From: an uncultured Planctomycetia bacterium
GTDB taxonomy: Bacteria; Omnitrophota; Gorgyraeia; Duberdicusellales; Duberdicusellaceae
DNA: 64,000 nt
Assembly (NCBI GenBank): GCA_964634935.1
Contig: CAZWJT010000002.1
Location: 10,570 to 74,569 of the forward strand
Reading direction: 5' to 3'
Below, one piece after another: positions 5,014-20,649 of this stretch. Under the pieces are notes generated by a model, which was not told the DNA's origin, made no database searches, and saw nothing but the letters and a program-made list of their open reading frames with translations. The translations under genes were made by a program, and so were the position numbers. Numbering within the stretch: the first letter of the stretch is position 1; each line of letters begins with the position of its first letter.

Positions 5014-8000
5014 ATGAGGTTTAAAACGATATTTTTTCTTACGCTTCTTGGTTTTCATTTCTGCGGTGTTTGTTGTTCTGGCTACGCGGAGGATGAGAGC
5101 CTTTCTCAGAAAGCGGCAAACCAAGTCATCGACAGCCTGCCTGATTTCATAAAAGATGTTCAGGCGATGCGGAATATGACTCCTCAGCAGAAAATCGATT
5201 ACCTTATGGGTGCGGTTGATGACCGGGTGAAAGAGAAGGTAAGCGAGAAATTCAAGGATCAAATCAAAGATAAAGTGAAAGATTTTACAAGAGCTGCTCT
5301 GCGGGCGCGCGCGTTCCAGGAATTCGGCATTCCTCAAATCCGCAATGCATTTGTTTTGGGCGAAGCGGTCAATTGGGGCAAGATTGAATCTGAGATCGTT
5401 TCCAACGTGGACACGAAGATGCGTATGTTTGATGCCGGATGGAAAGCCGCCGAAATCGGTTGGGGAGCCTATGAGGCATACGCGACAGGTGATGCGGTGG
5501 CGGCTGCGAAATCAATTAGCGGCAGCGTCTGTGAACTTTTGGCTGAGGCTTACATTCCAGGGTGGGGATGGATTAAGTTTGGAGCCAAGATGGTCGAAGC
5601 GCTGGGTAATTATGTTCTTTCATATGCCACGGATACCGCTGTTCAGGGTATGCTTGAAGATATGTATGGCATGAAATCGAATCCCTCGGGTTTTGCAGAT
5701 TGGTTGATTAAACAGTCTCCGCAGGCGATTATGGCGGATTTAAACAGTAAATGGGATGATGGCATGGCGTTTGGCTATCTCTGGCAGGGACAGGGAACGG
5801 ATAAAGGCGACGAAGAGATGAAGTCGCGTTTGCAATCGGTTCTTGTCGGGCTGCGTGGCCAGCTTCTTGCGAAAATCAAGGAAGAAGAAGCCAAAGAAAA
5901 AGAGCTTCAGCAGTATATGGAGCAGTATAACCAGGAGACAGAGAAGAGAGCGAAAGACTTGCAGTCTGTTGCAAAACAGGCTACCGATGAAGCAGAAAAG
6001 ATTTTGGCTCCAGTAAAATCGTTCCGCGAGAAATACTACGGGATTCGTAAACAAGAAGTTCAACAGCAGGAAACAAGAATCCGATCGCAAATGGTAGGCG
6101 GAGCAGGAATTGCGTATTCTTCTCTTAACTACAAAGGGCTGGTCAATATCTATAGAAACGCGCTGTCAGAAGTAAAAGACGGGCCTTCGAAAAGCGGCTT
6201 TGATAAAGAGGCCTACGAGCGTATGTACAATGAGTATGGTCCGGCAGTCGCAAAGGAATTAAAACGTTTCAGTGAGACGAATGAAGCGGCAATACAGGCC
6301 GCGGGAAAGGCCATGTGGGCGGCGTGGGGTCCTCAGTTTGATGCGCTCTCAACGCAGATTAACGCGGCTTTTAAGCGAGGGGATCATAGAACAGTAGAAG
6401 CGTTAAATAATCAGCTTGCCGCTTTGAACGCGCGATTTGCTCCGGTGCAACAGGCACACGCGAAAGCAGTCAGCGAGGCGCGCACAAAGATGGCGCTTGA
6501 AGAACAACTTTTGGGGACAGAGTATACGCTCGCAACGCTTGAAGCTACAGAACGAGGAGCAAAATTCGGCATGCGCATCGTAGAGGCGTATAAGTCAATC
6601 AATGATCAGTTGTCGAAAGCAAACACAGAGCTTGGCCTTGGCTTAAAAATATTGCGCGAAAATATCCATAAACTTAACTATCCAGGTTTATGGCGCCATG
6701 CTGGCAGTATTGCCGGAGCTATTGGCGGGGGTTACAGCGGTCCAGCTGAACAGCTGCGTAAAGGTGAGTATGAATTTTTTGTTGGTCCGGGGCATCTTTC
6801 AGGGGCGATTGCCAATGCTGAAGAAGAGGAGCGTAAACTCAAGGCAGACTTAGAAAAACTCAGTGAGCTTGACAGTGCAGAGCGGAAACTCTATGCGGCA
6901 TATCGCCAGGTAGTTGCTAACGCGTTCAATAGCTATCAAGCGGTCACTCCGGAACGGCTTCAGGTAATACATAAACCGCCAATTTTTTCAGGGGACCAGG
7001 AGGAAAATCGCCGCAATTCAATGATTGGTGCGGCTCGAAGTGGTAACCCGTCTTCGTTGGGAGATGAGTATTGGGGGATTGCTGATTTTCCCTATGTATC
7101 GTTTCCTGGAGGATATCCTCGTATTACCGGGACGATCATTTCTTTAGAGTTTTTAAACCAGATCGACAGTTTTCTGGGGAATCCATCTGAGCCGTATCGC
7201 GAGGCCTTAAAAAAGGTACAGCAAGATATTACGGCTTTACGCGGCTGGGCAGAAACTGACGAATTGGCAGGGATTATCAATCAGCTTGGTCCTCGGCTCT
7301 CCAAGCTTTTTGACCAGTACGCTTATTTTGGCGAAGGTATTCCTGGAATAATTTACAAATTTCGCGCGCTTCCTGAAGGAAAAGGCGGGCAGGGAACCAT
7401 TATTGATGAGCGCACCGTGTTGGATACGGCGGGTTATGTGTATCTTCAGGAGATGAAGGAAGTGTGGGAAAAGAATGGGCATCGTGTTGCGCAATTTGCC
7501 AATCTCGCAAAAGGATATGGGAAAGGCCATAACTATCCAAGGGATTATAACCCAAAGCGGTATATCGATAAGCTCCCTACCTGGCAGGGGATTCCTCAAA
7601 AGATTCAGATCTATGAACAGGCAATGATTCAGGCAATAAAAGAGAGTAAAGAGGCGTATGCTCAGGCTCGAAAGCAAATCGATGAGTTGAAAGACCAATT
7701 TGAGCAGTCGCGCAGCGGATTCGGCGCGATGAATCTGAAGAATATGCAGAATGTTCAAAAAACCCTGAAACTCATTATTCAGTACAATCTTGTTGCTCCA
7801 GGGTATACGGCAATGAAAGATGAGATTCTTCAGTTTGAAAAAGATATGGAAGAAGGAATCGCAACCTGGTTGGAAGAACAGAAAAAAAAGAATGAAGAAT
7901 ACCAGCGTCGGCAGGCAGAAGAAGCCAAATTCCAGGCGGAGGAGGCCCGCAAACAGGAAGAGGCAAGAAATCAGGATGCTTTAAAGCGGACCAATCCGGC

Positions 8001-9246
8001 TGAATACTATGGCTATCGAGTGGTGAGTAGCCGTCTGAATACATACTCGGTTGATGGTGTTTCCGGAGATATTATTGTTACTCGTGACAAGCTTGTTCAG
8101 GGGCAGCTGCATATTGACGCACAATTGAGCCATACAGATAAGGCAAAGACGCTTCTTTTCTCAGAAGATGGAGGAAGGACTTGGAAAGAAATACCACTAA
8201 GCGCGAACATCAGGTATTCGTTTTATCCGATGCCAAACAGGCTTTACAATCCTTTTGTCCAGATTAAAACCGAAGATCTTCTTGTAGTCAATCTCAAGCT
8301 TATTCCCAGCGCGAACGGGATTATCTATAAGGATGAAGATTTTAACCAGCAGGTAGTAGCCGCAGTTAAAGCGCTTGCCGAAGCATACGAGCGCCGGGAT
8401 TTATCGGGTTTTAGCGACCTTATTTCTCGGAATTATGCGGGAAATAAGACATTTCTCGAAGAAGGCGTTCGGTTTGATTTTGATCTTTTTCTCAATATTT
8501 CTTTGAAAATTTACATCAATCGCATTGAACAACGCGGAGATCGATTTGTCGTTGAAACCAAGTGGGATAAAAGCCAAACACCACGTCAGACAGGTCAGAC
8601 TCAAAAGACAACCGGACGAACCACGATTATGTTTGTAGTAGAGGATGGTAAACTCAAAGTTCAAAACCTGCGAGGAGATCTTCTCTATGCGACACTTTCT
8701 CCTGAAATTGCTCAAGCGAGTGGATTGTCTTCCGCCAAGGTTGAAGAAATCCGCACTGCTCGTGATGAGCGTAATCCGATACAACCGGGCGCGGGAACTA
8801 CAGATGATGATGGAGGGATCGCTTCTCCGGCGGCCACTTTGACTGTTACCACAAAAAGCTTGGAAGATGATTACGGTACCGGCGGCATGCCGGATCAGCA
8901 CATAGACTTTGCTACGGGTAATGTTATTTTAGGCGGAGCAGGAGGCGATATCGGACTTGAAGTGAATGGTTTCTGGGCACAAATAGGTGCCGGGATTAAA
9001 GAAGTCGGCACTTCATTCAATGCGACTACCGACGCTTCCGGAGTAACAGCGTTGGATAATAGCGTTTTTGGTCTTACAACAGGCAAAGTCTATATCTTTT
9101 TGACTACGGGTGGTTACTACGGTAAGCTTGAAGTGATTTCTTGGGATGAAGAAGACAGAGATCTTGATACTGTTTTTGATACCTCAATTGTGCAATTTCG
9201 CTATGCTGTCCAGACAAATGGGACATCCGATGTAACTACTCAGTAA
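5014..9246 (+). CDS. Giant (1410 aa) secreted coiled-coil protein, function unknown
   Basis: Signal peptide MRFKTIFFLTLLGFHFCGVCCSGYA. Long K/E/Q-rich heptad stretches (e.g. EEQKKKNEEYQRRQAEEAKFQAEEARKQEEARNQ). Gly/Thr-rich beta-like C-terminal 250 aa. RBS GAGGAAACAATG. Confidence 0.6.
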   Translation: MRFKTIFFLTLLGFHFCGVCCSGYAEDESLSQKAANQVIDSLPDFIKDVQAMRNMTPQQKIDYLMGAVDDRVKEKVSEKFKDQIKDKVKDFTRAALRARAFQEFGIPQIRNAFVLGEAVNWGKIESEIVSNVDTKMRMFDAGWKAAEIGWGAYEAYATGDAVAAAKSISGSVCELLAEAYIPGWGWIKFGAKMVEALGNYVLSYATDTAVQGMLEDMYGMKSNPSGFADWLIKQSPQAIMADLNSKWDDGMAFGYLWQGQGTDKGDEEMKSRLQSVLVGLRGQLLAKIKEEEAKEKELQQYMEQYNQETEKRAKDLQSVAKQATDEAEKILAPVKSFREKYYGIRKQEVQQQETRIRSQMVGGAGIAYSSLNYKGLVNIYRNALSEVKDGPSKSGFDKEAYERMYNEYGPAVAKELKRFSETNEAAIQAAGKAMWAAWGPQFDALSTQINAAFKRGDHRTVEALNNQLAALNARFAPVQQAHAKAVSEARTKMALEEQLLGTEYTLATLEATERGAKFGMRIVEAYKSINDQLSKANTELGLGLKILRENIHKLNYPGLWRHAGSIAGAIGGGYSGPAEQLRKGEYEFFVGPGHLSGAIANAEEEERKLKADLEKLSELDSAERKLYAAYRQVVANAFNSYQAVTPERLQVIHKPPIFSGDQEENRRNSMIGAARSGNPSSLGDEYWGIADFPYVSFPGGYPRITGTIISLEFLNQIDSFLGNPSEPYREALKKVQQDITALRGWAETDELAGIINQLGPRLSKLFDQYAYFGEGIPGIIYKFRALPEGKGGQGTIIDERTVLDTAGYVYLQEMKEVWEKNGHRVAQFANLAKGYGKGHNYPRDYNPKRYIDKLPTWQGIPQKIQIYEQAMIQAIKESKEAYAQARKQIDELKDQFEQSRSGFGAMNLKNMQNVQKTLKLIIQYNLVAPGYTAMKDEILQFEKDMEEGIATWLEEQKKKNEEYQRRQAEEAKFQAEEARKQEEARNQDALKRTNPAEYYGYRVVSSRLNTYSVDGVSGDIIVTRDKLVQGQLHIDAQLSHTDKAKTLLFSEDGGRTWKEIPLSANIRYSFYPMPNRLYNPFVQIKTEDLLVVNLKLIPSANGIIYKDEDFNQQVVAAVKALAEAYERRDLSGFSDLISRNYAGNKTFLEEGVRFDFDLFLNISLKIYINRIEQRGDRFVVETKWDKSQTPRQTGQTQKTTGRTTIMFVVEDGKLKVQNLRGDLLYATLSPEIAQASGLSSAKVEEIRTARDERNPIQPGAGTTDDDGGIASPAATLTVTTKSLEDDYGTGGMPDQHIDFATGNVILGGAGGDIGLEVNGFWAQIGAGIKEVGTSFNATTDASGVTALDNSVFGLTTGKVYIFLTTGGYYGKLEVISWDEEDRDLDTVFDTSIVQFRYAVQTNGTSDVTTQ

Positions 9247-9376
9247 TCTTTTCATCGCACGACATTTGCTCGTGGTATTTTAGAGAAATCTTCCTTTACA
9301 GCTCGCATAAAATTTGATAAAGTTATACAGATTTCTTAGGCCCTCTATACGTTGATTTTTTGGAATACGATAATAC

Positions 9377-9455
9377 GGTGGGTGTAGCTCAGTTTGGCTA
9401 GAGCACTTGACTGTGGCTCAAGATGTCGAGGGTTCAAATCCCTTCACCCACCCCA
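9377..9455 (+). tRNA. tRNA-His (anticodon GUG) with extra G-1 and encoded 3' CCA
   Basis: G(-1) precedes acceptor GTGGGTG/CACCCAC. Anticodon loop CTGTGGC. T-arm GAGGGTTCAAATCCCTT. Discriminator C followed by CCA in the DNA. Confidence 0.8.
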
Positions 9456-9462
9456 TATTTAA

Positions 9463-9518
9463 CCCTCATGCGAACCCGGACTCTTCGGAGCCACAAACGC
9501 ATGAGGGTTTTTCTTTTT
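9463..9518 (+). terminator. Hairpin plus T-run immediately after tRNA-His
   Basis: CCCTCATGCG ... CGCATGAGGG (10-bp stem, large loop) followed by TTTTTCTTTTT. Confidence 0.5.
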
Positions 9519-9553
9519 CTGGTGGGGAAGCGCTTGAGTTTGCTCCCCAAGAG

Positions 9554-10084
9554 ATGGTCGAGTTTATCAAATATCTGAAGAGCTATTCTTCGATATGGCC
9601 GAGAACTTACTTTTGTGAATTTCCTTTCTTTATCTCCATTACCAATTTTAAACGAAAAATATGCTTTGGAACACGGCCCGAAGACTTGGCCGATATGGGG
9701 ATTATTCATCAAAAAGCATGGGAAAGGCATCAGGCGCATTTAAATCGTCTGTCCCGATTTCCGCTTGATAAGGCAGAATATTATCAAAGGTTGAAGGAGA
9801 TGCATGCGGTGAATACCGTTCGTGGGCTTTCGACAATAACAGGGGAGGACTGGTCGTATATTGCTAAGATTCTTAGAGTTTTATTATTGCCGGAACCAAT
9901 TAAAGATTTTTTGAGGAATAATAAGAGCAATTCTGAGATTGTGAAGTTCTTCACTCTACGTCGTCTTCTTAATATTGTGCGGCAACGTGAGGAAAGGCTT
10001 CAATTAAGCTATTTCAGTGAGCTTATGGAAAAATATGGGATGGCGTTTATCGACTCTTGGACGCAGGATAACATCAAAAGATGA
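9554..10084 (+). CDS. Hypothetical protein (first gene of the island downstream of tRNA-His)
   Basis: ORF track 9407..10084 begins inside the tRNA. The first ATG downstream of the tRNA terminator is 9554 (MVEFIKYL...). No recognisable domain. Confidence 0.4.
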   Translation: MVEFIKYLKSYSSIWPRTYFCEFPFFISITNFKRKICFGTRPEDLADMGIIHQKAWERHQAHLNRLSRFPLDKAEYYQRLKEMHAVNTVRGLSTITGEDWSYIAKILRVLLLPEPIKDFLRNNKSNSEIVKFFTLRRLLNIVRQREERLQLSYFSELMEKYGMAFIDSWTQDNIKR

Positions 10085-10119
10085 ATCAAATCGCCGTGCC
10101 TAAATGTCCATTCCGTATG

Positions 10120-10147
10120 AATGTCCGCTCATTAGCGGACATTTTCT
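10120..10147 (+). terminator. Stem-loop after the hypothetical gene
   Basis: AATGTCCGCT-catt-AGCGGACATT followed by TT. The T-run is short, so this is a weak call. Confidence 0.3.
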
Positions 10148-10388
10148 AGCCAGCAGACATTTATAATAAAAGCGTAGGAACTGAAATTCCAATTAAGTTT
10201 ATTCACTTTTTCTGTATTCGGAAAAACAAGTAATATTTTGGGCTTCAAACGGCTCAAATTAGCCTGAAAAATAGTCTATTCCTGCAAAAATTGATTATTT
10301 TGCAGGCTTACGATAAAATGCCTTCGTTTTAGGTATTTGAGAATTTTTTTGATATTTTAGCCATAACATCGTGCAAGAAAAAAAAGAA

Positions 10389-10417
10389 TTGACAAATATT
10401 TGTTAAAATGGTATTAT
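10389..10417 (+). promoter_or_regulatory. Sigma70-like promoter TTGACA-N17-TATTAT for the ATPase/TOPRIM operon, overlapped by the near-palindrome TTGACAAATATTTGTTAA
   Basis: The -35 is 10389..10394 and the -10 is 10412..10417. The -35 lies inside an imperfect 9-9 inverted repeat, which could be an operator. Confidence 0.45.
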
Positions 10418-10462
10418 TACATTGTCAATAACGCTCAAAATAAGTATTTCAGGAGGGATAAA

Positions 10463-11689
10463 ATGATTCATTCATTTACGTTCAAAAATTTTTGTTCCTT
10501 TGCAAATAATGCCACAATATTGTTTCAGGATATTCGCAAAGGAGTAGAAACTAAGAGTAATATGTTTTGCGACACCTCGTTAGGCGACCGTGTAAGCAAA
10601 GTTATGATCGTGGTTGGGCCTAACGCGTCTGGTAAGACAAGCGCCCTTAAGGCGTTGGCTTTTCTTAGTTGGTTTGTGCGAAATTCCTTTGTTGGGCTGG
10701 AAGGGGAAAAGGAGCCAATCCCTGTCGATAATTTCGCTTTCTCAGAGGATAAAGAAAGCGTGTCGGAATTCGAATTGGTTTTTGATCACAAAGATGTTGT
10801 TTATAAATATATCCTGCATTTATGCAAAACCCATGTCATAAAGGAAGAGCTATACCGCAAAGAAGATACCCAGCATTTTAATTATATATTCAAGAGAAAT
10901 TGGAACGCACAGGCGGGGAGTTCTGAGATTGTTCAGCGCATAAATTTAAAGACAGAAATTCTTAAAGAAATCTTGCGCAAGAACGTGTCTTTAATTGCCG
11001 CGTCAGTCGCGATAAAGAACGATTTTCTTACAGATATTGCCGGGTTCTGGGAGAAGATCATTAGCAACGTTAATCGCATGGGAAAATCATGGGACACTTC
11101 TTCGCTTGGCGAACGCGGCTTATTTGAAGCCACAGAGGCCTATAATAAAAATCAAAATCTTTTTGTTAAAGTTGTTCAGTTTTTGAAAGACATTGATCTT
11201 GGTTTAGAGGGAGTGTTGATCGAAGAGGGAGAAGCTCGAAATCCTAAAACCGGAGAAGCGAAGAAAATTTATTTGCCATATGGCGTGCATAAGGTTAAGG
11301 ACAAGCAATATAAATTACCGTTAGCTTTTGAATCCAGCGGCACAAAAAATATGTTTGTGCTTTTGCATTTTCTTTTGCCAGCTATTGAGCAGGGCGGGCT
11401 TGCGGTAATAGACGAGCTTGAGATCGATTTGCATCCTCACGCCGTCCCGCAAATAATCGAGTTGTTCGCTAACCCAGCCACCAACCCTAAAAATAGCCAA
11501 CTCCTTTTTACTTCACATTCCCTGGAGGTTCTTAACCATCTTGAGAAGGAACAAATTGTTCTGGTTGAGAAAAAACAGGAGTGTAAAAGTGAGCTTTATC
11601 GGCTTGATGAATTGAAAGGAATACGTCGCGACGATAACATCTACGCAAAATATATGGCCGGTGCTTATGGCGCGGTTCCAAACATATAA
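10463..11689 (+). CDS. AAA_21/AAA_15 (ABC/OLD-type) ATPase, AbiLi/RloA/AriA-like
   Basis: Walker A VVGPNASGKTSALKAL. C-terminal ESSGTKNMFVLLHFL ... AVIDELEIDLHP ... LLFTSHSLEVL signatures. The ORF track starts at TTG 10400, but ATG 10463 has a strong RBS (AGGAGGG). Confidence 0.75.
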   Translation: MIHSFTFKNFCSFANNATILFQDIRKGVETKSNMFCDTSLGDRVSKVMIVVGPNASGKTSALKALAFLSWFVRNSFVGLEGEKEPIPVDNFAFSEDKESVSEFELVFDHKDVVYKYILHLCKTHVIKEELYRKEDTQHFNYIFKRNWNAQAGSSEIVQRINLKTEILKEILRKNVSLIAASVAIKNDFLTDIAGFWEKIISNVNRMGKSWDTSSLGERGLFEATEAYNKNQNLFVKVVQFLKDIDLGLEGVLIEEGEARNPKTGEAKKIYLPYGVHKVKDKQYKLPLAFESSGTKNMFVLLHFLLPAIEQGGLAVIDELEIDLHPHAVPQIIELFANPATNPKNSQLLFTSHSLEVLNHLEKEQIVLVEKKQECKSELYRLDELKGIRRDDNIYAKYMAGAYGAVPNI

Positions 11690-11705
11690 ATAAGGGAGCC
11701 GCGAT

Positions 11706-12248
11706 ATGACGCCAAGACGAATAAAGCCGACCAGAAACACAAAAACAACTGTTCTCATTGTAGGCGAAGGCCCTACCGAGAAAGCATTTTTGCAATATCT
11801 CAAGGAGTTATACGTCGCGTGTGATTATGCCTGTGCCGTAAAAGTAGAATGCGGTTCTGGCGGCTCACCTCGCTGTGTAGTGCAAAAAGCCATACGTTTA
11901 CGAGGTAGCAGGGCTTATGATAAGTGTTACGTGCTTTTTGACGCGGATAGGCCGCTTGAAACTGATTATAAATTATCTGATCGCATGAATAAGCGGCCTC
12001 GCGTTGAAGTTCTCAAGGCCACGCCATGCATAGAGGGGTTATTTTTGGCAATATTGAAACACCCCGGATTTTCTCAAGGAAGCGCCGCGTCACATGATTG
12101 CAAACGGGATTTCCATGCCGGTTACATATCCGAAGACAAAAAGATGGACAAACGGTCATATGGGGGGAAGTTTCCAAAAACGATACTGGATAGCCAAAGA
12201 GCGCAGGTTGCAGAGTTAGACCTTATTTTAAAGGCAATGCAGGTTTAG
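11706..12248 (+). CDS. RloB/DUF4276-like TOPRIM protein (AbiLii/OLD-nuclease-like partner)
   Basis: N-terminal basic tail then VLIVGEGPTEKAFLQYL (TOPRIM Glu) and VLFDADRP (DxD). Sits 16 bp after the ATPase gene; RBS AAGGGAG. Confidence 0.6.
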   Translation: MTPRRIKPTRNTKTTVLIVGEGPTEKAFLQYLKELYVACDYACAVKVECGSGGSPRCVVQKAIRLRGSRAYDKCYVLFDADRPLETDYKLSDRMNKRPRVEVLKATPCIEGLFLAILKHPGFSQGSAASHDCKRDFHAGYISEDKKMDKRSYGGKFPKTILDSQRAQVAELDLILKAMQV

Positions 12249-12316
12249 TGAATTTGCTTCAGGCGGTGTCGTCAGCAGGACGTTGTGGGTACCGGGAGCA
12301 ATAAACGGAGGATTTT

Positions 12317-12664
12317 ATGGGTGAAATAAAGGAACTTACAGAGAAAATAAAAGAATTCCGTGACGAGCGAGATTGGAAACAATTTCATAATCATAAGGAT
12401 ATGTCTCTCTCACTAATGCTTGAGGCAGCTGAAGTTTTAGAGCACTTTCAGTGGAAATCACAGAGCGAAGTCGAAAAACATGGAAATGCATGCAAAAATG
12501 AAATAGCTGAAGAGCTCGCTGATGTTGCTATGTACCTATTTGAGCTCGCAGATAATCTTGGTATTAATTTGTCCGATGCTATTGAGCATAAGCTGACAAA
12601 AAATGCTAAAAAGTACCCTGTAGAGAAAGCTAAAGGTAAACACACAAAATACGATAAATTATGA
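12317..12664 (+). CDS. MazG-like nucleoside triphosphate pyrophosphohydrolase (small all-alpha NTP-PPase)
   Basis: IKEFRDERDWKQFHNHKDMSLSLMLEAAEVLEHFQWK and EELADVAMYLFELA are typical of the MazG/dUTPase-like fold. RBS GGAGG. Its stop overlaps the next start (ATGA). Confidence 0.7.
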   Translation: MGEIKELTEKIKEFRDERDWKQFHNHKDMSLSLMLEAAEVLEHFQWKSQSEVEKHGNACKNEIAEELADVAMYLFELADNLGINLSDAIEHKLTKNAKKYPVEKAKGKHTKYDKL

Positions 12665-15075
12665 GGCTTTACTCGGGAACATCACAGCAATTCATTCAAG
12701 ATGCAATTCATAACCAAATCGCAGAGAAGTTAAAGAACGCATTTTTCGGATATTATCGTTACAATCCTTCCCCAGCGGAGATTAATTCTTGGCGCAACTC
12801 CCTTCGTTCGATTAGCCAAGTATTTCAGCATGCGGATCTGATGGATCATGGAGTTCTTCTTGAATACCAATTACCTTTAACTTCTCGCCGACTAGATTGC
12901 ATGATCTGTGGCCGTGATCAACAAAAAGCAGATAATGCTGTTATTGTGGAATTAAAACAATGGGATAGATGTGAAGAGGCGTATGGCGATAACGAAGTGC
13001 TCACATGGGTTGGAGGCGCAAAGCGAGAAGTATTACATCCTTCAGTCCAGGTTGGGCAATATCATCTTTACCTAGAAGATACGCACACAGCATTTAATGT
13101 TGATGATGACCCTGTTACCCTGAACGCTTGTACTTATTTACATAATTACAACTATTATTCCGACGACGTTATTTTTTCAGATAAATTCCAACTTCCTCTT
13201 AAACGGTATCCTCTATTTACTGCAGATGATGTTGAAAAGCTAACAGATTATTTGAGGGATAGACTTTTAACCGGAGACGGCCTAGATGTTTTACAAAGGA
13301 TCGAAGAAAGTAAATATCGTCCAAATAAAAAGCTCATGGATCACGTAGGTAACATAATAAAAAACAAAACAGAGTATATTCTGCTAGATGAGCAACTTAT
13401 CGTTTATGATGCTGTCTTGGGATGCGCAAAAAGAAGCTTCCATGATAAGCAAAAGTCTGTAATTGTTGTTAAAGGTGGCCCAGGCACTGGCAAGTCTGTT
13501 ATAGCAATTAACTTAATGGCTGACTTGCTATTGAAAGGTTACAACTCTCATTATGCCACTGGTTCAAAGGCTTTCACAGAGACATTGCGGAAGATCATCG
13601 GAACTCGCGGATCCGTACAGTTTAAATATTTTAACAGTTATGGTCAAGCAGAAGAGAATGCTGTAGATATTCTCATCGCGGATGAGGCCCATCGTATACG
13701 AGAGACAAGCAATAGTCGATTTACACCTCGCGCGAGCCGCTCCGAAATGACACAAATTGAAGAATTGCTTCGGGCGTCTAAGGTCGCGGTATTTTTTATT
13801 GATGATGACCAAGTAGTGCGTCCTAATGAAATAGGCTCTGTTGATTATATTAAGAGAATCGCAGACGATCGCAAAATCAAACTCCATGAATATGAATTAG
13901 AAGCTCAATTTCGTTGTAATGGATCTGATGCGTTTGTAAGTTGGATCAACAATACCTTAGGGATTAAAAGAACCGCCCATGTAATCTGGGATCAACATGA
14001 AGAATTTGATTTTAAGATATTTTCTAGTCCAATTGAACTTGAAAATGCCATACGTAATAATGTTGCACGAGGCTTTACTGGAAGAGTAACAGCTGGTTTT
14101 TGCTGGGATTGGTCGCTCCCGAATGAAGATGGTACGTTGAAAAATGATGTAATCATAGGAGATTATAAACGACCATGGGATGCAAAGCCGGAGGCTAAAC
14201 GCTTAGCTCCAGGTATTCCGAAAGCTTCCCTGTGGGCATATGATCCTAATGGTATTAATCAAGTTGGATGTGTGTATACTGCACAGGGTTTCGAGTTTGA
14301 TTATGTCGGAGTTATTTTTGGTGAAGATTTAGTATATGACTTTGATAAGCAAGAGTGGATCGGCAATTCGGCTAATTCCTCTGATAGCGTAGTTAAGCGG
14401 TCTAAGAACAAATTTGTGGATTTGGTAAAAAATACTTATAGAGTTTTATTAAGCCGAGGAATGAAGGGTTGTTACGTCTATTTTATGAATAAAGATACCG
14501 AGAGGTTTTTTAAATCACGAATTGAAGGTGATAATACACAAATAGATGAATCTTTAACCGTTTCTAGGCTTCTAGGTAGCGAGGTAGATTTTCTTGAACG
14601 TATTCTCCAAGACGTTGATAGCTCTTTGAAATACAAAGAATATTTACCAGTTTATACTTTGGCTGCGGCAGCCGGTGCATTCGGCGAAGGCATGGATGTT
14701 AAAGAAAAGGGTTGGATTAAGGTTAACATCGGTAAGGCTTTGAATAAAAAATTATTCGTTGCGAAAGTAATCGGTAAGTCTATGGAACCGTTAATTCCTG
14801 ATGGGAGCTATTGTGTGTTTAGTGCGAACGTTGTTGGCACGCGAGCGAATAAGATTGTTTTAGTTCAACACAGCAGCATTTCTGATCTTGATAGTGGCGG
14901 AAAATATACGGTGAAGAAATATACGAGTAAGAAAAAATACTCGTCAGATGACACTTGGGAACATGACGAAATAACTTTGTTGCCGCTAAATCCTGACTAC
15001 GCTCCCATCATAATACCGAATACCAATGAGGGCGAGTTTATGGTGATCGCAGAATTTATATCAGTATTAAAATAA
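12661..15075 (+). CDS. DUF2075-type nuclease/helicase: N-terminal PD-(D/E)xK motif, P-loop NTPase, C-terminal LexA/UmuD-type S24 autopeptidase domain
   Basis: RLDCMICG...AVIVELKQW matches D..ExK. Walker A VVKGGPGTGKSV and Walker B ILIADEAHRI. DUF2075 tail CVYTAQGFEFDYVGVIFGEDL. The C terminus has AAAAG (Ala671-Gly672) then 35 aa later VIGKSMEPLIPDGSYCVF (Ser707), TVKKY (Lys), LLPLNPDYAPIIIP, matching the S24 layout. Confidence 0.75.
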   Translation: MRLYSGTSQQFIQDAIHNQIAEKLKNAFFGYYRYNPSPAEINSWRNSLRSISQVFQHADLMDHGVLLEYQLPLTSRRLDCMICGRDQQKADNAVIVELKQWDRCEEAYGDNEVLTWVGGAKREVLHPSVQVGQYHLYLEDTHTAFNVDDDPVTLNACTYLHNYNYYSDDVIFSDKFQLPLKRYPLFTADDVEKLTDYLRDRLLTGDGLDVLQRIEESKYRPNKKLMDHVGNIIKNKTEYILLDEQLIVYDAVLGCAKRSFHDKQKSVIVVKGGPGTGKSVIAINLMADLLLKGYNSHYATGSKAFTETLRKIIGTRGSVQFKYFNSYGQAEENAVDILIADEAHRIRETSNSRFTPRASRSEMTQIEELLRASKVAVFFIDDDQVVRPNEIGSVDYIKRIADDRKIKLHEYELEAQFRCNGSDAFVSWINNTLGIKRTAHVIWDQHEEFDFKIFSSPIELENAIRNNVARGFTGRVTAGFCWDWSLPNEDGTLKNDVIIGDYKRPWDAKPEAKRLAPGIPKASLWAYDPNGINQVGCVYTAQGFEFDYVGVIFGEDLVYDFDKQEWIGNSANSSDSVVKRSKNKFVDLVKNTYRVLLSRGMKGCYVYFMNKDTERFFKSRIEGDNTQIDESLTVSRLLGSEVDFLERILQDVDSSLKYKEYLPVYTLAAAAGAFGEGMDVKEKGWIKVNIGKALNKKLFVAKVIGKSMEPLIPDGSYCVFSANVVGTRANKIVLVQHSSISDLDSGGKYTVKKYTSKKKYSSDDTWEHDEITLLPLNPDYAPIIIPNTNEGEFMVIAEFISVLK

Positions 15076-15085
15076 TAGGTTAGGC

Positions 15086-15790
15086 ATGATATTAAAACCC
15101 GGTGAAATAGTTTCTTATTTAACAATGTGCCAGCACGAAGGGGTAAACCTTCAGCGGGGCATGAATTTCCGGTTAAAGGGCGGGCTAAGTGTCATTTTAA
15201 TGAGCTTAAGAAAGAATGCCCCGTATGCTGATAGAGTCGAGGATGATGGTGGCGTTCTGATCTATGAAGGCCACGATGTTCCGAAATATCAGGGGTTAAA
15301 GCAAAATCCAAAACAAATTGATCAGCCAGGGCTTACTCCCTCAGGGGCATTAACCGAAAATGGCAAGTTTTTCAAAGCGGCCGAAGGATATAAGAAAAAT
15401 AATGGCATTCCAGAGCTCGTTAAAGTTTATGAGAAGATACGTAACGGCATTTGGACGTATTCTGGGATTTTTGAATTGATTGATGCATGGCAGGAAGCTG
15501 CTGGGAAGCGAAAGGTATTTAAATTCAAACTAAAAATTACCGATCGGTCAGAGGCCGATCGCGACCCTGCAAATAAGGACGACTTGGATCATACGCGCGT
15601 AATACCCACAGATGTTAAATTGGCGGTATGGGAGCGCGATAAAGGACGATGTGTTGTATGCAATTCGGCAAACAACTTGCACTTTGATCACATTATCCCA
15701 TTCTCAAAGGGCGGTACATCTTTAAAAGCAGAAAATATTCAATTGATGTGTGCAAGGCATAATCTAAATAAACGAGATAAATTAATTTAG
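15086..15790 (+). CDS. SRA(YDG)-like domain fused to an HNH endonuclease: putative type IV modification-dependent restriction enzyme
   Basis: C-terminal HNH: CVVCNSANNLHFDHIIPFSKGG...NIQLMCARHN. The N-terminal GGLSVILMS...YADRVEDDGGVLIYEGHD resembles the SRA motif S-V-L-SGG...Y-DD-D-G...YTG-GG. 10 bp after the DUF2075 gene. Confidence 0.55.
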   Translation: MILKPGEIVSYLTMCQHEGVNLQRGMNFRLKGGLSVILMSLRKNAPYADRVEDDGGVLIYEGHDVPKYQGLKQNPKQIDQPGLTPSGALTENGKFFKAAEGYKKNNGIPELVKVYEKIRNGIWTYSGIFELIDAWQEAAGKRKVFKFKLKITDRSEADRDPANKDDLDHTRVIPTDVKLAVWERDKGRCVVCNSANNLHFDHIIPFSKGGTSLKAENIQLMCARHNLNKRDKLI

Positions 15791-15970
15791 ATTCGATAAA
15801 CTTTTGATAAGGAAACGAATTAAATGGCATTGGTTTGTTGATCATTGGGTTTTGTTAGCTCAAAATTCGGGGAGCTTCACATTTTTTTGCTCCTGTGGCT
15901 CTAGACTGCGCGGTTTCTAATACCGCGAGGCCACCCCAGCTTAAAAATTTCTGCCAAATTTTTAAGCGTC

Positions 15971-16148
15971 CCAAAGCCATCCCGGGAAATATCCACAGGA
16001 AATTTCCCGGGTATTCAAACGGCGAGGGGCAGGATTACATATCGCTACTTCCAATGTCTTCCTGAGCATATCAATCAGATCTTCTGAATATCAAATGGCA
16101 GAGGGTTTTGTCTGGTAAAGGAAAACCTTTTATAATATAATGTTTTAT
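15971..16148. repeat. 178-bp direct repeat, copy 1 (identical to 18686..18863); contains a palindrome and a consensus promoter
   Basis: Base-by-base comparison of the two copies shows identity over 178 bp. Internal inverted repeat CCCGGGAAAT-N11-ATTTCCCGGG at 15981..16011. Confidence 0.9.
16108..16136 (+). promoter_or_regulatory. Sigma70 promoter TTGTCT-N17-TATAAT at the 3' end of repeat copy 1
   Basis: -35 16108..16113, 17-nt spacer, -10 TATAAT 16131..16136. Points toward the gene starting at 16323. Confidence 0.6.
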
Positions 16149-16322
16149 GCCCTTTTTGTAAATAAGAATGGCCTTGCCCGAGTGCTGGATTGTGCCGTCT
16201 ACCGAGATCAAAGGGCTTCTGTACAAGAACCCAAAGGGCAACCGATCGGTGATTGACTGTTATGGCGAGAAAGGCATGCTAAAAAGAGGGCTTCGCTTTA
16301 AGGATAACTGGGAGCTTCTGAA

Positions 16323-16820
16323 ATGACAGAATTGCTTCAAGCACAAGTTCGATCTATCGGCGAGCATTACGTTGTTGCTCGGCTTACGACGCTGGGGTTT
16401 ATCGTGGGCTTGGCGCCTGAGAATACAAGAGCTGTTGATATTATTGCGATGAGCGAGGATGGCAAAAGAAACCTCCAGATTCAGGTTAAAACGCGAACGG
16501 AAGGCCGTTCTGCCGATAAAGGCTGGATGATGAGTGAGAAACACGAATCCTTAGTGAATGACAATTTATATTATATTTTCGTTACTTTACCGGAGCAATG
16601 GACTGACCGCGATCAACCGTCCACTTTTATTATTCCATCAAAGAAAGTGGCCGCTATTGTTAAGCAATCGCATAAAGACTGGACATCCAGCCCCGGGCGT
16701 AAAGGTCAAAAGCGTAACGATACCAAAATGAGACGAATCAAGCCGATCTATTCAGATTCTCCATCAATTCCTGCTGACTGGATGGATGAATACCGGGATA
16801 ATTGGGAGATTTTGAAATGA
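16323..16820 (+). CDS. Small hypothetical protein with a PD-(D/E)xK-like motif arrangement
   Basis: GEHYVVARL ... VDIIAM ... LQIQVK resembles the E / D / (E/Q)xK restriction-endonuclease-fold core. No other match. Confidence 0.4.
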   Translation: MTELLQAQVRSIGEHYVVARLTTLGFIVGLAPENTRAVDIIAMSEDGKRNLQIQVKTRTEGRSADKGWMMSEKHESLVNDNLYYIFVTLPEQWTDRDQPSTFIIPSKKVAAIVKQSHKDWTSSPGRKGQKRNDTKMRRIKPIYSDSPSIPADWMDEYRDNWEILK

Positions 16821-17470
16821 CTTTAGATCGATATGTCGCATGGGCCTTGGCTAATATTAACATAACCCTTCCCGTTTCCCGCAGAGTTGAGGAAGATTGG
16901 TTATATAATTGGTCGAGGACGTTGGATGCGATTAACAGCGTGACTGGGATATTTGAGGTTACGTCGTTGATATTCTCACGGTCTGAGTTTCTTGGCGGTT
17001 TATATCTTGGAAAAACGGCGGATACAACAGCTGACGATTTTAAACTGTTCTGGGATAAGTTCTTCCCGGAGGAGTATAAGGATTTTCATAATATGAGCGG
17101 CCAAGGTAAAGGTTCAGACATCTTCAATGTATTCAGAAATAATATCCTTCACTCAGGGACAGCAACGGCGATTAAATCTGGTGCCGATGATATTATTGGC
17201 TGGTTGATGGGATACGGGGTAAATCCCGATGGCAAGGGCATATCTTTTAAGGATCGGGCGTTTCATATTGACTGCCAGAATCTAACTACCGAGTTCAAAG
17301 AGGCGCTGAAGAAATATATTTCTTACTTGAAAGATGATACGGATGATTTAAACGGACAGGGCATTCCAAGCGTACGCTGGAGAAAAGGATTTTGGTATAC
17401 CTTAAAGCCTGTTTATATGGATTCTGCTTCATGGGGCGCTTTAGGTCGAGATAATAAGATTTATTCTTAA
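16817..17470 (+). CDS. Hypothetical protein, translationally coupled (ATGA) to the upstream gene
   Basis: ATG 16817 overlaps stop 16818..16820. No recognisable motif. Confidence 0.4.
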   Translation: MTLDRYVAWALANINITLPVSRRVEEDWLYNWSRTLDAINSVTGIFEVTSLIFSRSEFLGGLYLGKTADTTADDFKLFWDKFFPEEYKDFHNMSGQGKGSDIFNVFRNNILHSGTATAIKSGADDIIGWLMGYGVNPDGKGISFKDRAFHIDCQNLTTEFKEALKKYISYLKDDTDDLNGQGIPSVRWRKGFWYTLKPVYMDSASWGALGRDNKIYS

Positions 17471-17485
17471 TGCGAGAGGTTAATT

Positions 17486-18436
17486 ATGGCGAAAATTATA
17501 TGCTTCACTGCAATATTATTGCTGAATACTATTTTAGCAAGCGCGCAGGATACCCCTTTGGAAAAACAACTGACATTGATATACAAGAATGCGGAAGATG
17601 CAACCACCAAAGGCGATATCGAGCAGTCAGATTTTTGGTTGGCCAGATACATGGGTTTAACAGCCACAGATGAAAACACAAACCGTGGCTACCCCGATTT
17701 AATCCCATTGTTTAAAAAACGAGAGGATTTAAAACCCACAGCATTTATCTCTGGAAAGTACGATGATAGTTTTATCGAATTCTACGCTCGCGGAACATGT
17801 GGCATGTGGGGCGCGCCCGATGAAGGTATTGATAGAGAAAAGCGAGAATTTATAATTCAGTCCTATTCAGATGGTCGCTATTTTGTCGAGATAACAGCTT
17901 CGCCTCGGCTTGAGAATTGGTCTATTTTAAAAGAGCCCGCAGTTGTAGCCGTTATCCCTCTCGGGAAAAACCCCATTATCCATTCAGGTAAACTTGATAA
18001 AAATGCGGTTGCTAAACGCTTCAAGAATATGCCCTTTGATATCGGAGAAAGTTTTATCCACTACGTCTGGCAACCGGAAATGCACGATTTAGATGGGGAT
18101 GGCATACCTGAAGTATGGATCCGCTATATTAAGGCTTGGGCCGATGGTTTTTCTCAGGAATTGGCTATATATAAAATTAAAGATGACAGTGATCTTGTCC
18201 TATTAAAGCAGTTCTCCGGTGAAGCCGAAGGCATTGCCAGACGCCTTGACGGGAATGGGGTCGAGATAGGCACCGGCTTTACTAATAAGAATGTTGGGCA
18301 TCTAGGTTTTGATCAGACACGCCTTGAAATATGGGCATACAGAGATGGCAAATTCATAAAGACTTCCGAAAGGAATGTTCCCCATATTCTCTGGAGTAAT
18401 GCATGGGAGAAGTATTATTTTAATAGTCAAAAATGA
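17486..18436 (+). CDS. Secreted hypothetical protein (signal peptide)
   Basis: MAKIICFTAILLLNTILASAQD signal peptide. RBS GAGAGG. Confidence 0.5.
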   Translation: MAKIICFTAILLLNTILASAQDTPLEKQLTLIYKNAEDATTKGDIEQSDFWLARYMGLTATDENTNRGYPDLIPLFKKREDLKPTAFISGKYDDSFIEFYARGTCGMWGAPDEGIDREKREFIIQSYSDGRYFVEITASPRLENWSILKEPAVVAVIPLGKNPIIHSGKLDKNAVAKRFKNMPFDIGESFIHYVWQPEMHDLDGDGIPEVWIRYIKAWADGFSQELAIYKIKDDSDLVLLKQFSGEAEGIARRLDGNGVEIGTGFTNKNVGHLGFDQTRLEIWAYRDGKFIKTSERNVPHILWSNAWEKYYFNSQK

Positions 18437-18463
18437 TGTTTTGCGGGACAATGGATTAGTTAG

Positions 18464-18506
18464 CAGGCTACAAGGCAGTTTCTAACCTGCTTAAGCCATC
18501 GACCCC
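18464..18506. repeat. 45-bp motif copy A (CAGGCTACAAGGCAGTTTCTAA core)
   Basis: A 22-nt perfect match plus a similar 20-nt extension relative to 20515..20557. Starts 28 bp after the stop of the secreted-protein gene. Confidence 0.7.
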
Positions 18507-18685
18507 AATGAAACTTACTTCTTTCTGTCTCGACAAAGCAGAAAGAAGTTTAGTTGAATTGTCCCCGAACAGCTTTCGGAAAATGTCAAAGAGATTTTCC
18601 GAATATGAGAGATGTTCGGGGTACAACACTGCATGCGGTGCAAAAAGCAGCGCAGGCCATCAGAAAAGGCCAAGGTTTAGTTACT

Positions 18686-18863
18686 CCAAAGCCATCCCGG
18701 GAAATATCCACAGGAAATTTCCCGGGTATTCAAACGGCGAGGGGCAGGATTACATATCGCTACTTCCAATGTCTTCCTGAGCATATCAATCAGATCTTCT
18801 GAATATCAAATGGCAGAGGGTTTTGTCTGGTAAAGGAAAACCTTTTATAATATAATGTTTTAT
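18686..18863. repeat. 178-bp direct repeat, copy 2
   Basis: Identical to 15971..16148. ORF-track ORFs 18508..18780 and 18554..18802 lie in it and are considered spurious. Confidence 0.9.
18823..18851 (+). promoter_or_regulatory. Sigma70 promoter TTGTCT-N17-TATAAT (repeat copy 2) driving gltA
   Basis: -10 18846..18851. gltA ATG 18935 with RBS AGAGAGGTGG. Confidence 0.6.
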
Positions 18864-18934
18864 AATCGTGTATTAAGAGATTGTACCTGTTGCTAAAATA
18901 AACCAGTATATGATGTCTGAAAGAGAGGTGGCAA

Positions 18935-20557: not shown

Positions 20558-20649
20558 ACAGTTTGACTGCGTACGACCCTTGAATTTTGCATGATAATGT
20601 TTCTGACTGATGTTTTTATTGACTTTAAGAATATTTTTGCTATTATAAT

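What the first reader, a model, noticed from the sequence alone, without database searches (positions are those of the whole stretch)
10281..12248. AbiL/PARIS-like two-gene ATPase-TOPRIM module with palindromic elements in its leader
An AAA_21-type ABC ATPase (Walker A GPNASGKT, C-terminal ESSGT..IDELE..LHP..TSHS) is followed 16 bp later by a 180-aa protein. That protein has a basic N-tail and the VLIVGEGPTEKAFLQYL / FDADR TOPRIM-like motifs of RloB/DUF4276. This is the architecture of AbiLi/AbiLii and, more loosely, PARIS AriA/AriB and split OLD nucleases. Upstream, the -35 hexamer of a TTGACA-N17-TATTAT promoter is embedded in the near-palindrome TTGACAAATATTTGTTAA. A second inverted repeat, CCTGCAAAA-N8-TTTTGCAGG, lies at 10281..10306. 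Both are candidate operator sites, although no regulator gene is nearby.
Basis: partly seen in the sequence, partly recalled or inferred. Interest (0 to 1): 0.5.

Follow-up and report, generated by a model that had tools for sequence, protein, structure and literature searches.

The report
AbiL-type ATPase–TOPRIM phage-defence cassette
This is an ordinary member of a known two-gene anti-phage family (AbiL/RloAB: a sensor ATPase plus a small TOPRIM nuclease) in an uncultured Omnitrophota genome; the one new detail is that its promoter carries a palindrome that stays with the gene pair across several bacterial phyla.

Summary
Window 10463..11689 encodes a 408-aa Rad50/SMC-like ABC ATPase (Pfam AAA_21 6.6e-32; PADLOC AbiLi 1.9e-75). 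After a 16-nt gap, 11706..12248 encodes a 180-aa RloB protein (Pfam RloB above its cut-off; PADLOC AbiLii 3.3e-11). Its AlphaFold model (pLDDT 91) resembles OLD-nuclease TOPRIM domains, and E21, D79, D81 and E110 are conserved. AriB (DUF4435) is not matched, so this is AbiL/RloAB, not PARIS.

Homology to more than 30 related loci covers only the promoter and the two genes. Neighbours differ between loci (integrases, type I R-M genes, other defence genes), so the unit is a self-contained mobile defence cassette.

The TTGACA-N17-TATTAT promoter is conserved well above synonymous-site level. Its palindrome (TYRACA-N6-TGTYRA) recurs in 26 of 28 non-redundant loci, including relatives only 41-52% identical from other phyla. 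No covariation supports it statistically, so an operator role remains a hypothesis.

The second inverted repeat is not significant by itself (p about 0.08). It overlaps a conserved upstream element (AAATATTGATTATTTT) found in 13 of 20 close loci; its function is unknown.

Verdict: new member of a known kind, modest interest.

The parts
10261..10320 (+). Conserved upstream element (UE). Its core is AAAAATTGATTATTTT (10286-10301). Function unknown.
   Evidence: The inverted repeat is perfect (I10). The core AAATATTGATTATTTT (at most 2 mismatches) lies 103-147 nt upstream of the -35 in 13 of 20 non-redundant close loci. It is absent where an integrase gene abuts the promoter and in relatives of 41-52% identity. 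The RNAalifold consensus is a weak AU hairpin, TTATTTTG...CAAAATAA, at -1.4 kcal/mol, with one G-C to A-U pair change. There is no Rfam match.
10375..10388 (+). A-rich, UP-element-like tract directly upstream of the -35.
   Evidence: An A-rich block (consensus GATAAAAATAA) is partly conserved in 18 aligned promoters. blastn homology to related loci begins at 10373-10389.
10389..10417 (+). Sigma-70-type promoter TTGACA-N17-TATTAT with an extended -10 TG (10409-10410). It includes the imperfect palindrome TTGACA-aatatt-TGTTAA (10389-10406), a candidate operator. The predicted TSS is near 10424.
   Evidence: It scores 11/12, the best in 6.9 kb. Columns TTGACAA, GTT, A.ATG and TATTATT are at least 90% conserved in 18 loci, whereas 4-fold degenerate sites have a mean majority frequency of 0.51 and 0 of 52 reach 0.9. 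All 11 metagenome matches to the promoter pattern precede this ATPase family. The palindrome is present in 26 of 28 loci; 90.5% of cells pair in register against 26-52% when slid, but there is no excess over column shuffles.
10451..10457 (+). Ribosome-binding site AGGAGGG for the ATPase gene.
   Evidence: Read from the sequence. It is conserved as AGGAG(G/A) in related loci.
10463..11689 (+). AbiLi-type ABC ATPase (AAA_21/AAA_15; Rad50/SMC-like head), 408 aa. Walker A is GPNASGKT (aa 52-59), the signature-like motif is ESSGT (290), Walker B/D-loop is VIDELEIDLHP (315-325) and the H-loop is TSHS (350).
11692..11698 (+). Ribosome-binding site AAGGGAG for the RloB gene, inside the 16-nt intergenic gap.
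   Evidence: Read from the sequence. The gap between the two genes is 9-17 nt in 17 related loci and they overlap by 4 nt in L020.
11706..12248 (+). AbiLii/RloB-type TOPRIM (OLD-like) nuclease, 180 aa. The basic N-terminal tail (aa 1-13) is predicted disordered. The acidic residues are E21, D79, D81 and E110.

Best explanation
Window 10375..12248 is a self-contained, horizontally mobile AbiL/RloAB-type anti-phage cassette. It consists of one strong, cassette-specific sigma-70 promoter, a Rad50/SMC-like ABC ATPase (AbiLi type) and a closely following small OLD-type TOPRIM nuclease (AbiLii/RloB type).

Shown here:
- the domain identities and the conserved catalytic and ATP-binding residues;
- the two-gene arrangement (separate RBS for each gene; 9-17 nt between the genes in 17 related loci, a 4-nt overlap in L020) and purifying selection on both genes;
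- that promoter plus two genes travel as a unit between unrelated genomic contexts rich in defence genes and integrases.

Inferred by analogy with PARIS, the only mechanistically solved split ABC-ATPase/TOPRIM system, and with AAA/TOPRIM_OLD toxin-antitoxin pairs:
- the ATPase oligomer holds the nuclease inactive and acts as the infection sensor;
- a phage cue, together with ATP binding or hydrolysis, releases or activates the nuclease;
- the nuclease then cuts a host or phage nucleic acid using its E/DxD/E metal site. A tRNA is the precedent from AriB; DNA is the precedent from OLD and Gabija;
- this stops phage production at the cost of the cell's growth.

The conserved palindrome over the -35 is most simply read as part of a conserved strong promoter that may also be an operator. 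Because no other gene travels with it, any such operator would be bound by a cassette-encoded protein.
For: Classification:
- PADLOC AbiLi 1.9e-75 and AbiLii 3.3e-11 on adjacent co-directional genes.
- Pfam AAA_21 and RloB, both above their cut-offs.
- Of 44 partner homologues, 43 hit RloB.
- TOPRIM fold and acidic residues.
- ATPase fold closest to Rad50/SMC, then the defence ATPases PtuA, the retron ATPase and AriA.

Operon and selection:
- The pair is kept in 18 loci, with 9-17 nt between the genes in 17 of them and a 4-nt overlap in L020.
- The ATPase is 96% identical in protein but only 85% in DNA to L018.

Cassette boundaries and context:
- Homology runs from 10373-10389 to 12247-12253 only.
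- Neighbours elsewhere are integrases, a KAP NTPase, an SNF2 helicase, PLD, PIF1-WYL and type I R-M HsdR/HsdM/HsdS.
- In the window the neighbours are MazG-like, SLFN-g3 helicase-S24 and SRA-HNH genes, next to tRNA-His.

Promoter:
-.

Literature:
- AbiL is grouped with ABC-ATPase + TOPRIM defence systems (PMC11464382, PMC13064643).
- RloB is treated as an OLD_TOPRIM toxin neutralised by AAA ATPases (PMC10440598).
- The PARIS mechanism is described in PMC11464382.
Against: - No experiment exists for this clade or phylum. Defence, toxicity, nuclease substrate and trigger are all inferred.
- No AbiLii/RloB structure has been solved; a profile search of PDB sequences found nothing.
- AbiLii and AriB models superimpose poorly according to PMC13064643, so the PARIS mechanism may not transfer.
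- The partner, at 180 aa, covers only positions 1-147 of the 195-position Pfam RloB model.
- The palindrome shows no covariation beyond column composition.
Confidence: 0.78

Rival explanations
1. The pair is primarily a toxin-antitoxin-like addiction module: the TOPRIM protein is the toxin and the ATPase is the antitoxin. It stabilises the genomic island and is autoregulated through the promoter palindrome. It has no dedicated anti-phage role.
For: AAA ATPase / TOPRIM_OLD pairs behave as toxin-antitoxin pairs in neutralisation assays (PMC10440598). A conserved palindrome overlaps the -35, as in type II TA operators. The cassette lies in integrase-linked islands.
Against: TA behaviour and defence are not exclusive; PARIS shows both (PMC13064643). 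The neighbours are overwhelmingly defence genes. Neither protein has a recognisable DNA-binding domain.
Confidence: 0.12
2. The palindromes are not operators. The promoter palindrome is a by-product of a conserved strong promoter (UP tract, -35, constrained spacer, TGn -10). The 10281-10306 inverted repeat is a chance or insulating hairpin.
For: The left arm of the palindrome is simply the -35 hexamer. Pairing frequency equals that of column shuffles (90.5 against 90.1%). A 9-nt inverted repeat arises in 8% of shuffles. The arms of the second inverted repeat are not conserved, and the upstream element is dispensable in 6-7 loci. No regulator gene travels with the cassette.
Against: Spacer bases GTTRA are at least 90% conserved, whereas synonymous sites are about 51%. 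The palindrome persists, and is perfect, in L019 (TCAACA/TGTTGA) and L043 (TCGACA/TGTCGA). In those loci the aligned -10 is degenerate (TGTTTG, AAAATT) and the left arm is no longer TTGACA. The upstream-element core is identical (16/16) in four loci whose ATPases are only 72-77% identical to the window's.
Confidence: 0.45
3. It is a PARIS (AriA/AriB) system proper.
Against: The two PADLOC AriA profiles have about the same lengths (304 and 373 positions) as Pfam AAA_21 (304) and AAA_15 (374), so they look generic. There is no AriB or DUF4435 hit for the partner or for any of 44 homologues. The AbiLi score is far higher. Rad50, SMC and PtuA are structurally closer than AriA.
Confidence: 0.03
4. 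It is an accessory of a type I restriction-modification system (the original RloA/RloB context) and acts with Hsd proteins rather than alone.
For: Related cassettes lie beside or between hsd genes: L037/L038 between hsdR and hsdS, L042 between hsdS and hsdR, L041 downstream of hsdS, and L015 upstream of hsdM. RloB was first seen in type I R-M loci (PMC10440598).
Against: In the window and in most related loci no hsd gene flanks the pair. The cassette brings its own promoter. The family also occurs as a stand-alone pair on a 5.3-kb Photobacterium plasmid.
Confidence: 0.05

Closest known systems
AbiL (AbiLi/AbiLii) of Lactococcus lactis plasmid pND861, as modelled in PADLOC
   Same: Two co-directional genes: an AAA_15/21 ABC ATPase followed by an RloB-type TOPRIM protein. 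Both PADLOC models hit (1.9e-75 and 3.3e-11).
   Different: The host phylum is Omnitrophota, known only from uncultured MAGs. The partner is compact (180 aa, matching Pfam RloB positions 1-147 of 195). The prototype sequences were not compared directly. The phenotype is unknown. The conserved promoter palindrome and upstream element did not come up in the AbiL/RloB passages retrieved by term search in three papers; the original AbiL paper was not available.
RloA/RloB of Campylobacter type I R-M loci, and 'ATP-binding protein + RloB domain-containing protein' pairs on plasmids (Photobacterium toruni pCECT9189-5, Vibrio alginolyticus pMBL287)
   Same: The gene order is the same and the annotation is RloB. 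The plasmid pairs are 30-33% identical over the full length. Some related loci lie beside or between hsd genes.
   Different: The window copy is not in an hsd locus. The plasmid homologues lack the TYRACA-N6-TGTYRA palindrome at the same spacing.
PARIS (AriA/AriB), class 4 OLD-like system
   Same: A split ABC ATPase sensor plus a TOPRIM effector. It is the best available mechanistic model: an AriA hexamer sequesters AriB, a trigger releases it, and AriB cleaves tRNA-Lys (PMC11464382).
OLD-family nucleases (P2 Old, class 1; Gabija GajA, class 2)
   Different: In those systems the ATPase and TOPRIM are fused in one polypeptide. Here they are separate genes, and the TOPRIM protein has only a short helical C-terminal part.
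Septu / retron PtuA-PtuB
   Different: The effector there is an HNH nuclease, not a TOPRIM protein.

Membership tests
AbiL (PADLOC/DefenseFinder sense) | AbiLi-type AAA_15/AAA_21 ABC ATPase | tested here: met
   PADLOC PDLC02335 AbiLi 1.9e-75 (252 bits). Pfam AAA_21 112 bits and AAA_15 71 bits, both above their cut-offs.
AbiL (PADLOC/DefenseFinder sense) | AbiLii / RloB-domain partner | tested here: met
   Pfam RloB 38.7 bits against a cut-off of 31.5. PADLOC AbiLii 3.3e-11 and 4.4e-9. Of 44 homologues, 43 hit RloB.
AbiL (PADLOC/DefenseFinder sense) | The two genes are adjacent, co-directional and co-transcribed | tested here: met
   The gap is 16 nt with its own RBS and no terminator between the genes. 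The gap is 9-17 nt in 17 related loci and the genes overlap by 4 nt in L020. Co-transcription itself is inferred.
AbiL (PADLOC/DefenseFinder sense) | Confers phage resistance by abortive infection | not testable with these tools
   Needs phage challenge in a host. Only the defence-island context supports it.
AbiL (PADLOC/DefenseFinder sense) | Direct sequence similarity to the L. lactis AbiLi/AbiLii prototypes | not tested
   The prototype sequences were not retrieved. Similarity is shown only through the PADLOC HMMs.
OLD-type TOPRIM nuclease superfamily | TOPRIM fold (four-stranded parallel sheet flanked by helices) | tested here: met
OLD-type TOPRIM nuclease superfamily | Conserved acidic metal-binding residues (Glu after strand 1; DxD; further Glu) | tested here: met
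   E21, D79 and E110 are invariant and D81 is at least 90% conserved in 44 sequences.
OLD-type TOPRIM nuclease superfamily | Metal-dependent nuclease activity | not testable with these tools
   Biochemistry is required.
PARIS (AriA/AriB) | AriB effector with a DUF4435 (PF14491) TOPRIM domain | tested here: not met
   There is no PF14491 hit at E of 1 or lower in any of 44 members, and no PADLOC AriB hit.
PARIS (AriA/AriB) | AriA-type ABC ATPase | tested here: inconclusive
RloA/RloB of type I R-M loci | Located inside an hsd (type I R-M) gene cluster | tested here: not met
   The window neighbours are a ParB-HTH ORF and MazG-like, SLFN-g3 helicase-S24 and SRA-HNH genes. The feature is met in related loci: L037/L038 and L042 lie between hsdR and hsdS, L041 lies downstream of hsdS, and L015 lies upstream of hsdM.
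Class 1/2 OLD nucleases (P2 Old, GajA) | ATPase and TOPRIM fused in one polypeptide | tested here: not met
   There are two separate ORFs with a stop codon, a 16-nt gap and a second RBS.
Type II toxin-antitoxin module | Autoregulatory operator in its own promoter, bound by the antitoxin or the complex | tested here: inconclusive
   A conserved palindrome overlaps the -35 in 26 of 28 loci, but it shows no covariation beyond column composition. Neither protein has a known DNA-binding domain. Binding is untested.

The most novel reading that the evidence does not exclude
The imperfect palindrome TYRACA-N6-TGTYRA is the only non-coding sequence that stays with this ATPase-RloB pair from Omnitrophota to Gammaproteobacteria, Phycisphaerae, Goldbacteria and Sumerlaeota. 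On this reading it is an autoregulatory operator bound by the cassette's own proteins, for example through the conserved basic N-terminal tail of RloB or through the ATPase-RloB complex. The clade-specific upstream element (AAATATTGATTATTTT, 103-147 nt upstream of the -35) would be an auxiliary site. This would make AbiL-type systems transcriptionally self-limiting in the manner of type II toxin-antitoxin modules, a layer of control not described for ABC-ATPase/TOPRIM defence systems.
Probability: 0.22. Interest if true: 0.55.

Novelty: new member of a known kind. Interest (0 to 1): 0.3.

Why it matters
As a gene pair it adds little. AbiL/RloAB cassettes are already detected automatically, and this copy only extends them to Omnitrophota and allied candidate phyla.

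Two things are of modest use:
- It gives a clean definition of the mobile unit (promoter plus two genes, about 1.9 kb). That unit would be convenient for heterologous testing of a defence family whose mechanism, trigger and substrate are still untested.
- The promoter palindrome and the upstream element are conserved far above neutral expectation. They offer a concrete, cheap hypothesis (autoregulation) to test with EMSA and reporter fusions.

Tried and rejected
- Known RNA family in the leader: Rfam found only the tRNAs, both with E-value mode on 9300-12700 and with gathering thresholds on the whole window.
- RNA or hairpin covariation for the promoter palindrome: pairing is in register (90.5% against 26-52% when slid), but it equals column shuffles (222 of 500 reach it), so there is no statistical support.
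- Upstream element as a structured RNA: RNAalifold gives only a weak 8-bp AU hairpin at -1.4 kcal/mol.
- Upstream element as a sigma-70 promoter: the window's TTGATT-N17-TAAAAT (9/12) is not conserved in other loci (my reading).
- Upstream element as an intrinsic terminator: T-runs follow it in some loci (L021, L007) but not in the window.
- Small conserved ORF in the leader: none of 20 aa or more is shared between loci.
- Upstream ParB-HTH ORF as the cassette's regulator: it is found only in the window's own genome (L035). L003's upstream ORF is unrelated.
- Promoter block shared with other cargo: all 11 metagenome matches precede this ATPase, so it is cassette-specific and not a general host promoter type. 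The spacer/-10 motif GTTRAAATGGTATTAT is unique in the window.
- Upstream-element copies elsewhere: two matches with 3 mismatches in the window (30342, 45672) look like chance or ordinary promoter sequence. L008 9844 lies inside a coding sequence.
- Sequence search of solved structures with the RloB profile: nothing.
- A scan of public collections for the upstream element alone was not run. By my own rough estimate an AT-rich 16-18-mer would give hundreds to thousands of chance hits.
- dif/attC-like recombination site: I found no second copy of the upstream-element motif in the 68 nt downstream of RloB (12249-12316, my reading), and the attC core GTTRRRY is not matched.
Full report
1. OBSERVATION

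The ATPase gene is 10463..11689 (408 aa). ATG 10463 is preceded by AGGAGGG at 10451-10457. The mechanical ORF list extends it to a TTG at 10400, but homologues all start at MIHSF. The motifs are Walker A GPNASGKT (aa 52), ESSGT (290), IDELE (316), LHP (323) and TSHS (350).

The stop is TAA 11687-11689. A 16-nt gap containing AAGGGAG follows, and the 180-aa partner is 11706..12248. It carries VLIVGEGPTEKAFLQYL (aa 16) and FDADR (aa 78).

The promoter TTGACA(10389)-N17-TATTAT(10417), with a TG at 10409-10410, scores 11/12. That is the best of 21 promoter-like sites in 6.9 kb.

The near-palindrome 10389-10406 and the perfect inverted repeat 10281-10289/10298-10306 are both real. Taken alone, the 9-nt inverted repeat is not beyond chance: 8% of dinucleotide shuffles of the intergenic region contain one.

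2. WHAT THE GENES ARE

The ATPase matches Pfam AAA_21 (6.6e-32) and AAA_15 (1.8e-19). It matches the PADLOC AbiLi model at 1.9e-75.

The partner matches Pfam RloB at 38.7 bits, above the 31.5-bit cut-off, and PADLOC AbiLii at 3.3e-11. When 44 partner homologues were scanned one by one, 43 hit RloB, 19 hit DUF4276 weakly, 4 hit OLD-like_TOPRIM weakly, and none hit DUF4435, the AriB domain.

In the 44-sequence alignment E21, D79, E110 and G52-G53 are invariant, and D81 is at least 90% conserved. This is the Glu / DxD / Glu pattern of TOPRIM metal sites (established knowledge of the fold).

3. THE UNIT AND ITS CONTEXT

A genome-collection scan returned 20 related loci, mostly Omnitrophota MAGs. 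In 18 of them an RloB-like gene follows the ATPase gene: 9-17 nt downstream in 17 loci, and overlapping it by 4 nt in L020.

blastn homology between the window and these loci starts at 10373-10389 and ends at 12247-12253. That span is the promoter plus the two genes and nothing else.

The flanks are unrelated between loci. They include tyrosine recombinases, a KAP NTPase, a STAND-like ATPase, an SNF2 helicase, HsdM, a PLD nuclease and a PIF1-WYL helicase. More distant members lie between or next to type I R-M genes: hsdR/hsdS in L037/L038 and L042, and hsdS in L041. That is the classical RloA/RloB setting.

In the window the pair lies just after tRNA-His (9378-9455). Upstream is a small ParB-HTH ORF. 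Downstream are a MazG-like gene, a Schlafen-group-3 helicase fused to an S24 peptidase, and an SRA-HNH gene. This is a defence island, and it ends before citrate synthase.

The closest relative (L018) has a 96% identical ATPase at only 85% DNA identity, which indicates purifying selection. The exact protein also occurs on a Logan contig with the same neighbours.

The nearest homologues in cultured organisms are 'ATP-binding protein + RloB domain-containing protein' pairs on Photobacterium and Vibrio plasmids, at 30-33% identity.

4. THE LEADER

(a) Promoter. In 18 non-redundant loci whose ATPases are 70-96% identical to the window's, these columns are at least 90% conserved: TTGACAA, GTT, A.ATG (which includes the extended -10 TG) and TATTATT. 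An A-rich UP-like tract precedes them. By contrast, 4-fold degenerate sites at invariant residues have a mean majority frequency of 0.51, and none of 52 reaches 0.9. A metagenome scan for TTGACAAW-N5-GTTRAAATGGTATTATT found 11 stretches, and all 11 are followed by this ATPase. The promoter is therefore real, under constraint and specific to the cassette.

(b) Palindrome. Written as hexamers, the element is TYRACA-N6-TGTYRA. It is present in 26 of 28 non-redundant loci. These include relatives that are only 41-52% identical, from Gammaproteobacteria, Phycisphaerae, Goldbacteria, Sumerlaeota and unassigned metagenome contigs.
- Where the left arm is the -35 hexamer TTGACA, the right arm is TGTTAA, TGTTGA or CGTTRA, giving 3-5 of 6 complementary positions.
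- Where the left arm differs, the palindrome is as good or better: TCAACA/TGTTGA in L019 and TCGACA/TGTCGA in L043 are both perfect.
- In L019 and L043 the aligned -10 is degenerate. This hints that the palindrome is kept for a reason other than sigma-factor contact.
- The pattern occurs once in the 64-kb window, against 0.04 expected.

The formal test is sobering. 90.5% of cells pair in register, against 26-52% when the partner is slid. But column shuffles give 90.1% (222 of 500 reach the observed value), so there is no covariation signal. Two independently conserved half-sites explain the data equally well.

(c) Second inverted repeat. Its arms are not conserved. It does, however, enclose a conserved core (consensus AAATATTGATTATTTT). 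The core has at most 2 mismatches in 13 of 20 close loci and is identical in four loci whose ATPases are 72-77% identical to the window's. It lies 103-147 nt upstream of the -35, within a block of about 45 nt of partial conservation.

The core is missing where an integrase gene abuts the promoter (L013, L016, L028) and in all distant relatives. It is therefore clade-specific and dispensable.

The consensus fold is a weak AU hairpin (-1.4 kcal/mol) with one G-C to A-U exchange. There is no Rfam family, no shared small ORF and no conserved sigma-70 match. Its function is unknown.

(d) Regulator. The ParB-HTH ORF upstream (Pfam 5.5e-5; called as a 91-aa gene on the Logan contig) occurs only in this genome. 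It is therefore not the cassette's regulator. No other gene travels with the pair. If the palindrome is an operator, the binding protein must be cassette-encoded or universal.

5. HOW IT MOST LIKELY WORKS

Shown here:
- a strong promoter and two genes with intact ATP-binding and metal-binding motifs;
- mobility of these parts as a single unit;
- location in defence islands.

Inferred from PARIS and from AAA/TOPRIM_OLD toxin-antitoxin pairs:
- In PARIS, an AriA hexamer sequesters AriB. Ocr-like triggers release AriB, which dimerises and cleaves tRNA-Lys (PMC11464382).
- In AAA/TOPRIM_OLD toxin-antitoxin pairs, the ATPase neutralises the TOPRIM toxin (PMC10440598).
- By analogy, the ATPase here would hold the RloB nuclease inactive and sense infection. 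On activation the nuclease would cut tRNA or DNA and abort the infection.

Whether AbiL really follows PARIS is explicitly an open question (PMC13064643). That review also reports that AbiLii and AriB models superimpose poorly.

6. COMPARISON AND NOVELTY

This is an AbiL/RloAB-type system. All sequence-testable membership features are met.

It is not PARIS, because the DUF4435 effector is absent. It is not a fused OLD or Gabija nuclease, because the ATPase and TOPRIM are separate genes. In this window it is not embedded in a type I R-M locus.

Novelty: a new member of a known kind. The cross-phylum promoter palindrome and the clade-specific upstream element did not come up in the AbiL/RloB passages I retrieved by term search in three papers. 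The original AbiL paper was not available.

Interest is modest (0.3). The most novel reading that the evidence does not exclude is autoregulation of an ABC-ATPase/TOPRIM defence cassette through its own operator. I put its probability at about 0.2.

Noticed in passing
window 15971-16148 and 18686-18863: A perfect 178-nt direct repeat flanks a 2.5-kb segment. The segment holds three ORFs without Pfam hits (16323..16820, 16802..17470, 17486..18436). It lies between the SRA-HNH gene and citrate synthase. It could be an insertion with duplicated ends or an assembly artefact. A further 44-nt repeat (82% identical) is at 18464-18507 / 20515-20558.
   Followed up: partly
window 9378-18900: This is a defence island next to tRNA-His with no integrase. 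After the AbiL pair come a MazG-like gene (12317..12664), a Schlafen-group-3 (DUF2075) helicase fused to a C-terminal LexA-like S24 peptidase (12661..15075; PADLOC PDC-S41, AbiO and Nhi hits) and an SRA+HNH protein (15086..15790). No terminator is predicted between RloB and the MazG-like gene, so read-through is possible.
   Followed up: partly
window 10101-10165; L003 1391-1490: A strong terminator-like hairpin (AATGTCCGCT-cauu-AGCGGACATT + TTTTCT, -22.8 kcal/mol, z -5.4) follows the ParB-HTH ORF. Extra AAATGTCC / GGACATTT copies surround it. L003 carries seven similar repeats at the equivalent upstream position, although its upstream ORF is unrelated. These may be binding sites for a ParB/KorB-like protein.
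   Followed up: partly
window 9407-10084: The mechanical 225-aa ORF starts inside tRNA-His, so its N-terminus is spurious. The gene call on the identical Logan contig is a 91-aa protein (window 9809..10084) that carries the ParB-type HTH.
   Followed up: partly
L021 2660-4730; L010 5694-6001: In two related loci the conserved promoter is separated from the ATPase start by an insertion in the 5' UTR. In L021 the upstream element is displaced with it. The insertion is about 1.8 kb with minus-strand ORFs in L021 and about 190 nt of GC-rich sequence in L010. These cassettes may be silenced or re-wired.
   Followed up: no
window 11706-12248 (RloB residues C74, C108, C132): Three cysteines are at least 90% conserved across 44 homologues. 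C108 lies two residues before the invariant E110. A possible metal or redox role was not examined in the model.
   Followed up: no
L034 (Vibrio alginolyticus pMBL287) 2470-2503: In the 30%-identical plasmid homologue, a TGGTATTAT extended -10 lies 7 nt before the annotated ATG and there is no RBS. This suggests a leaderless transcript. The same TGGTATTAT motif forms the -10 of the Omnitrophota cassettes.
   Followed up: no
window 5014-9246: A 1410-aa ORF with a signal-peptide-like N-terminus and long charged coiled-coil-like stretches has no Pfam hit. It lies directly upstream of tRNA-His.
   Followed up: no
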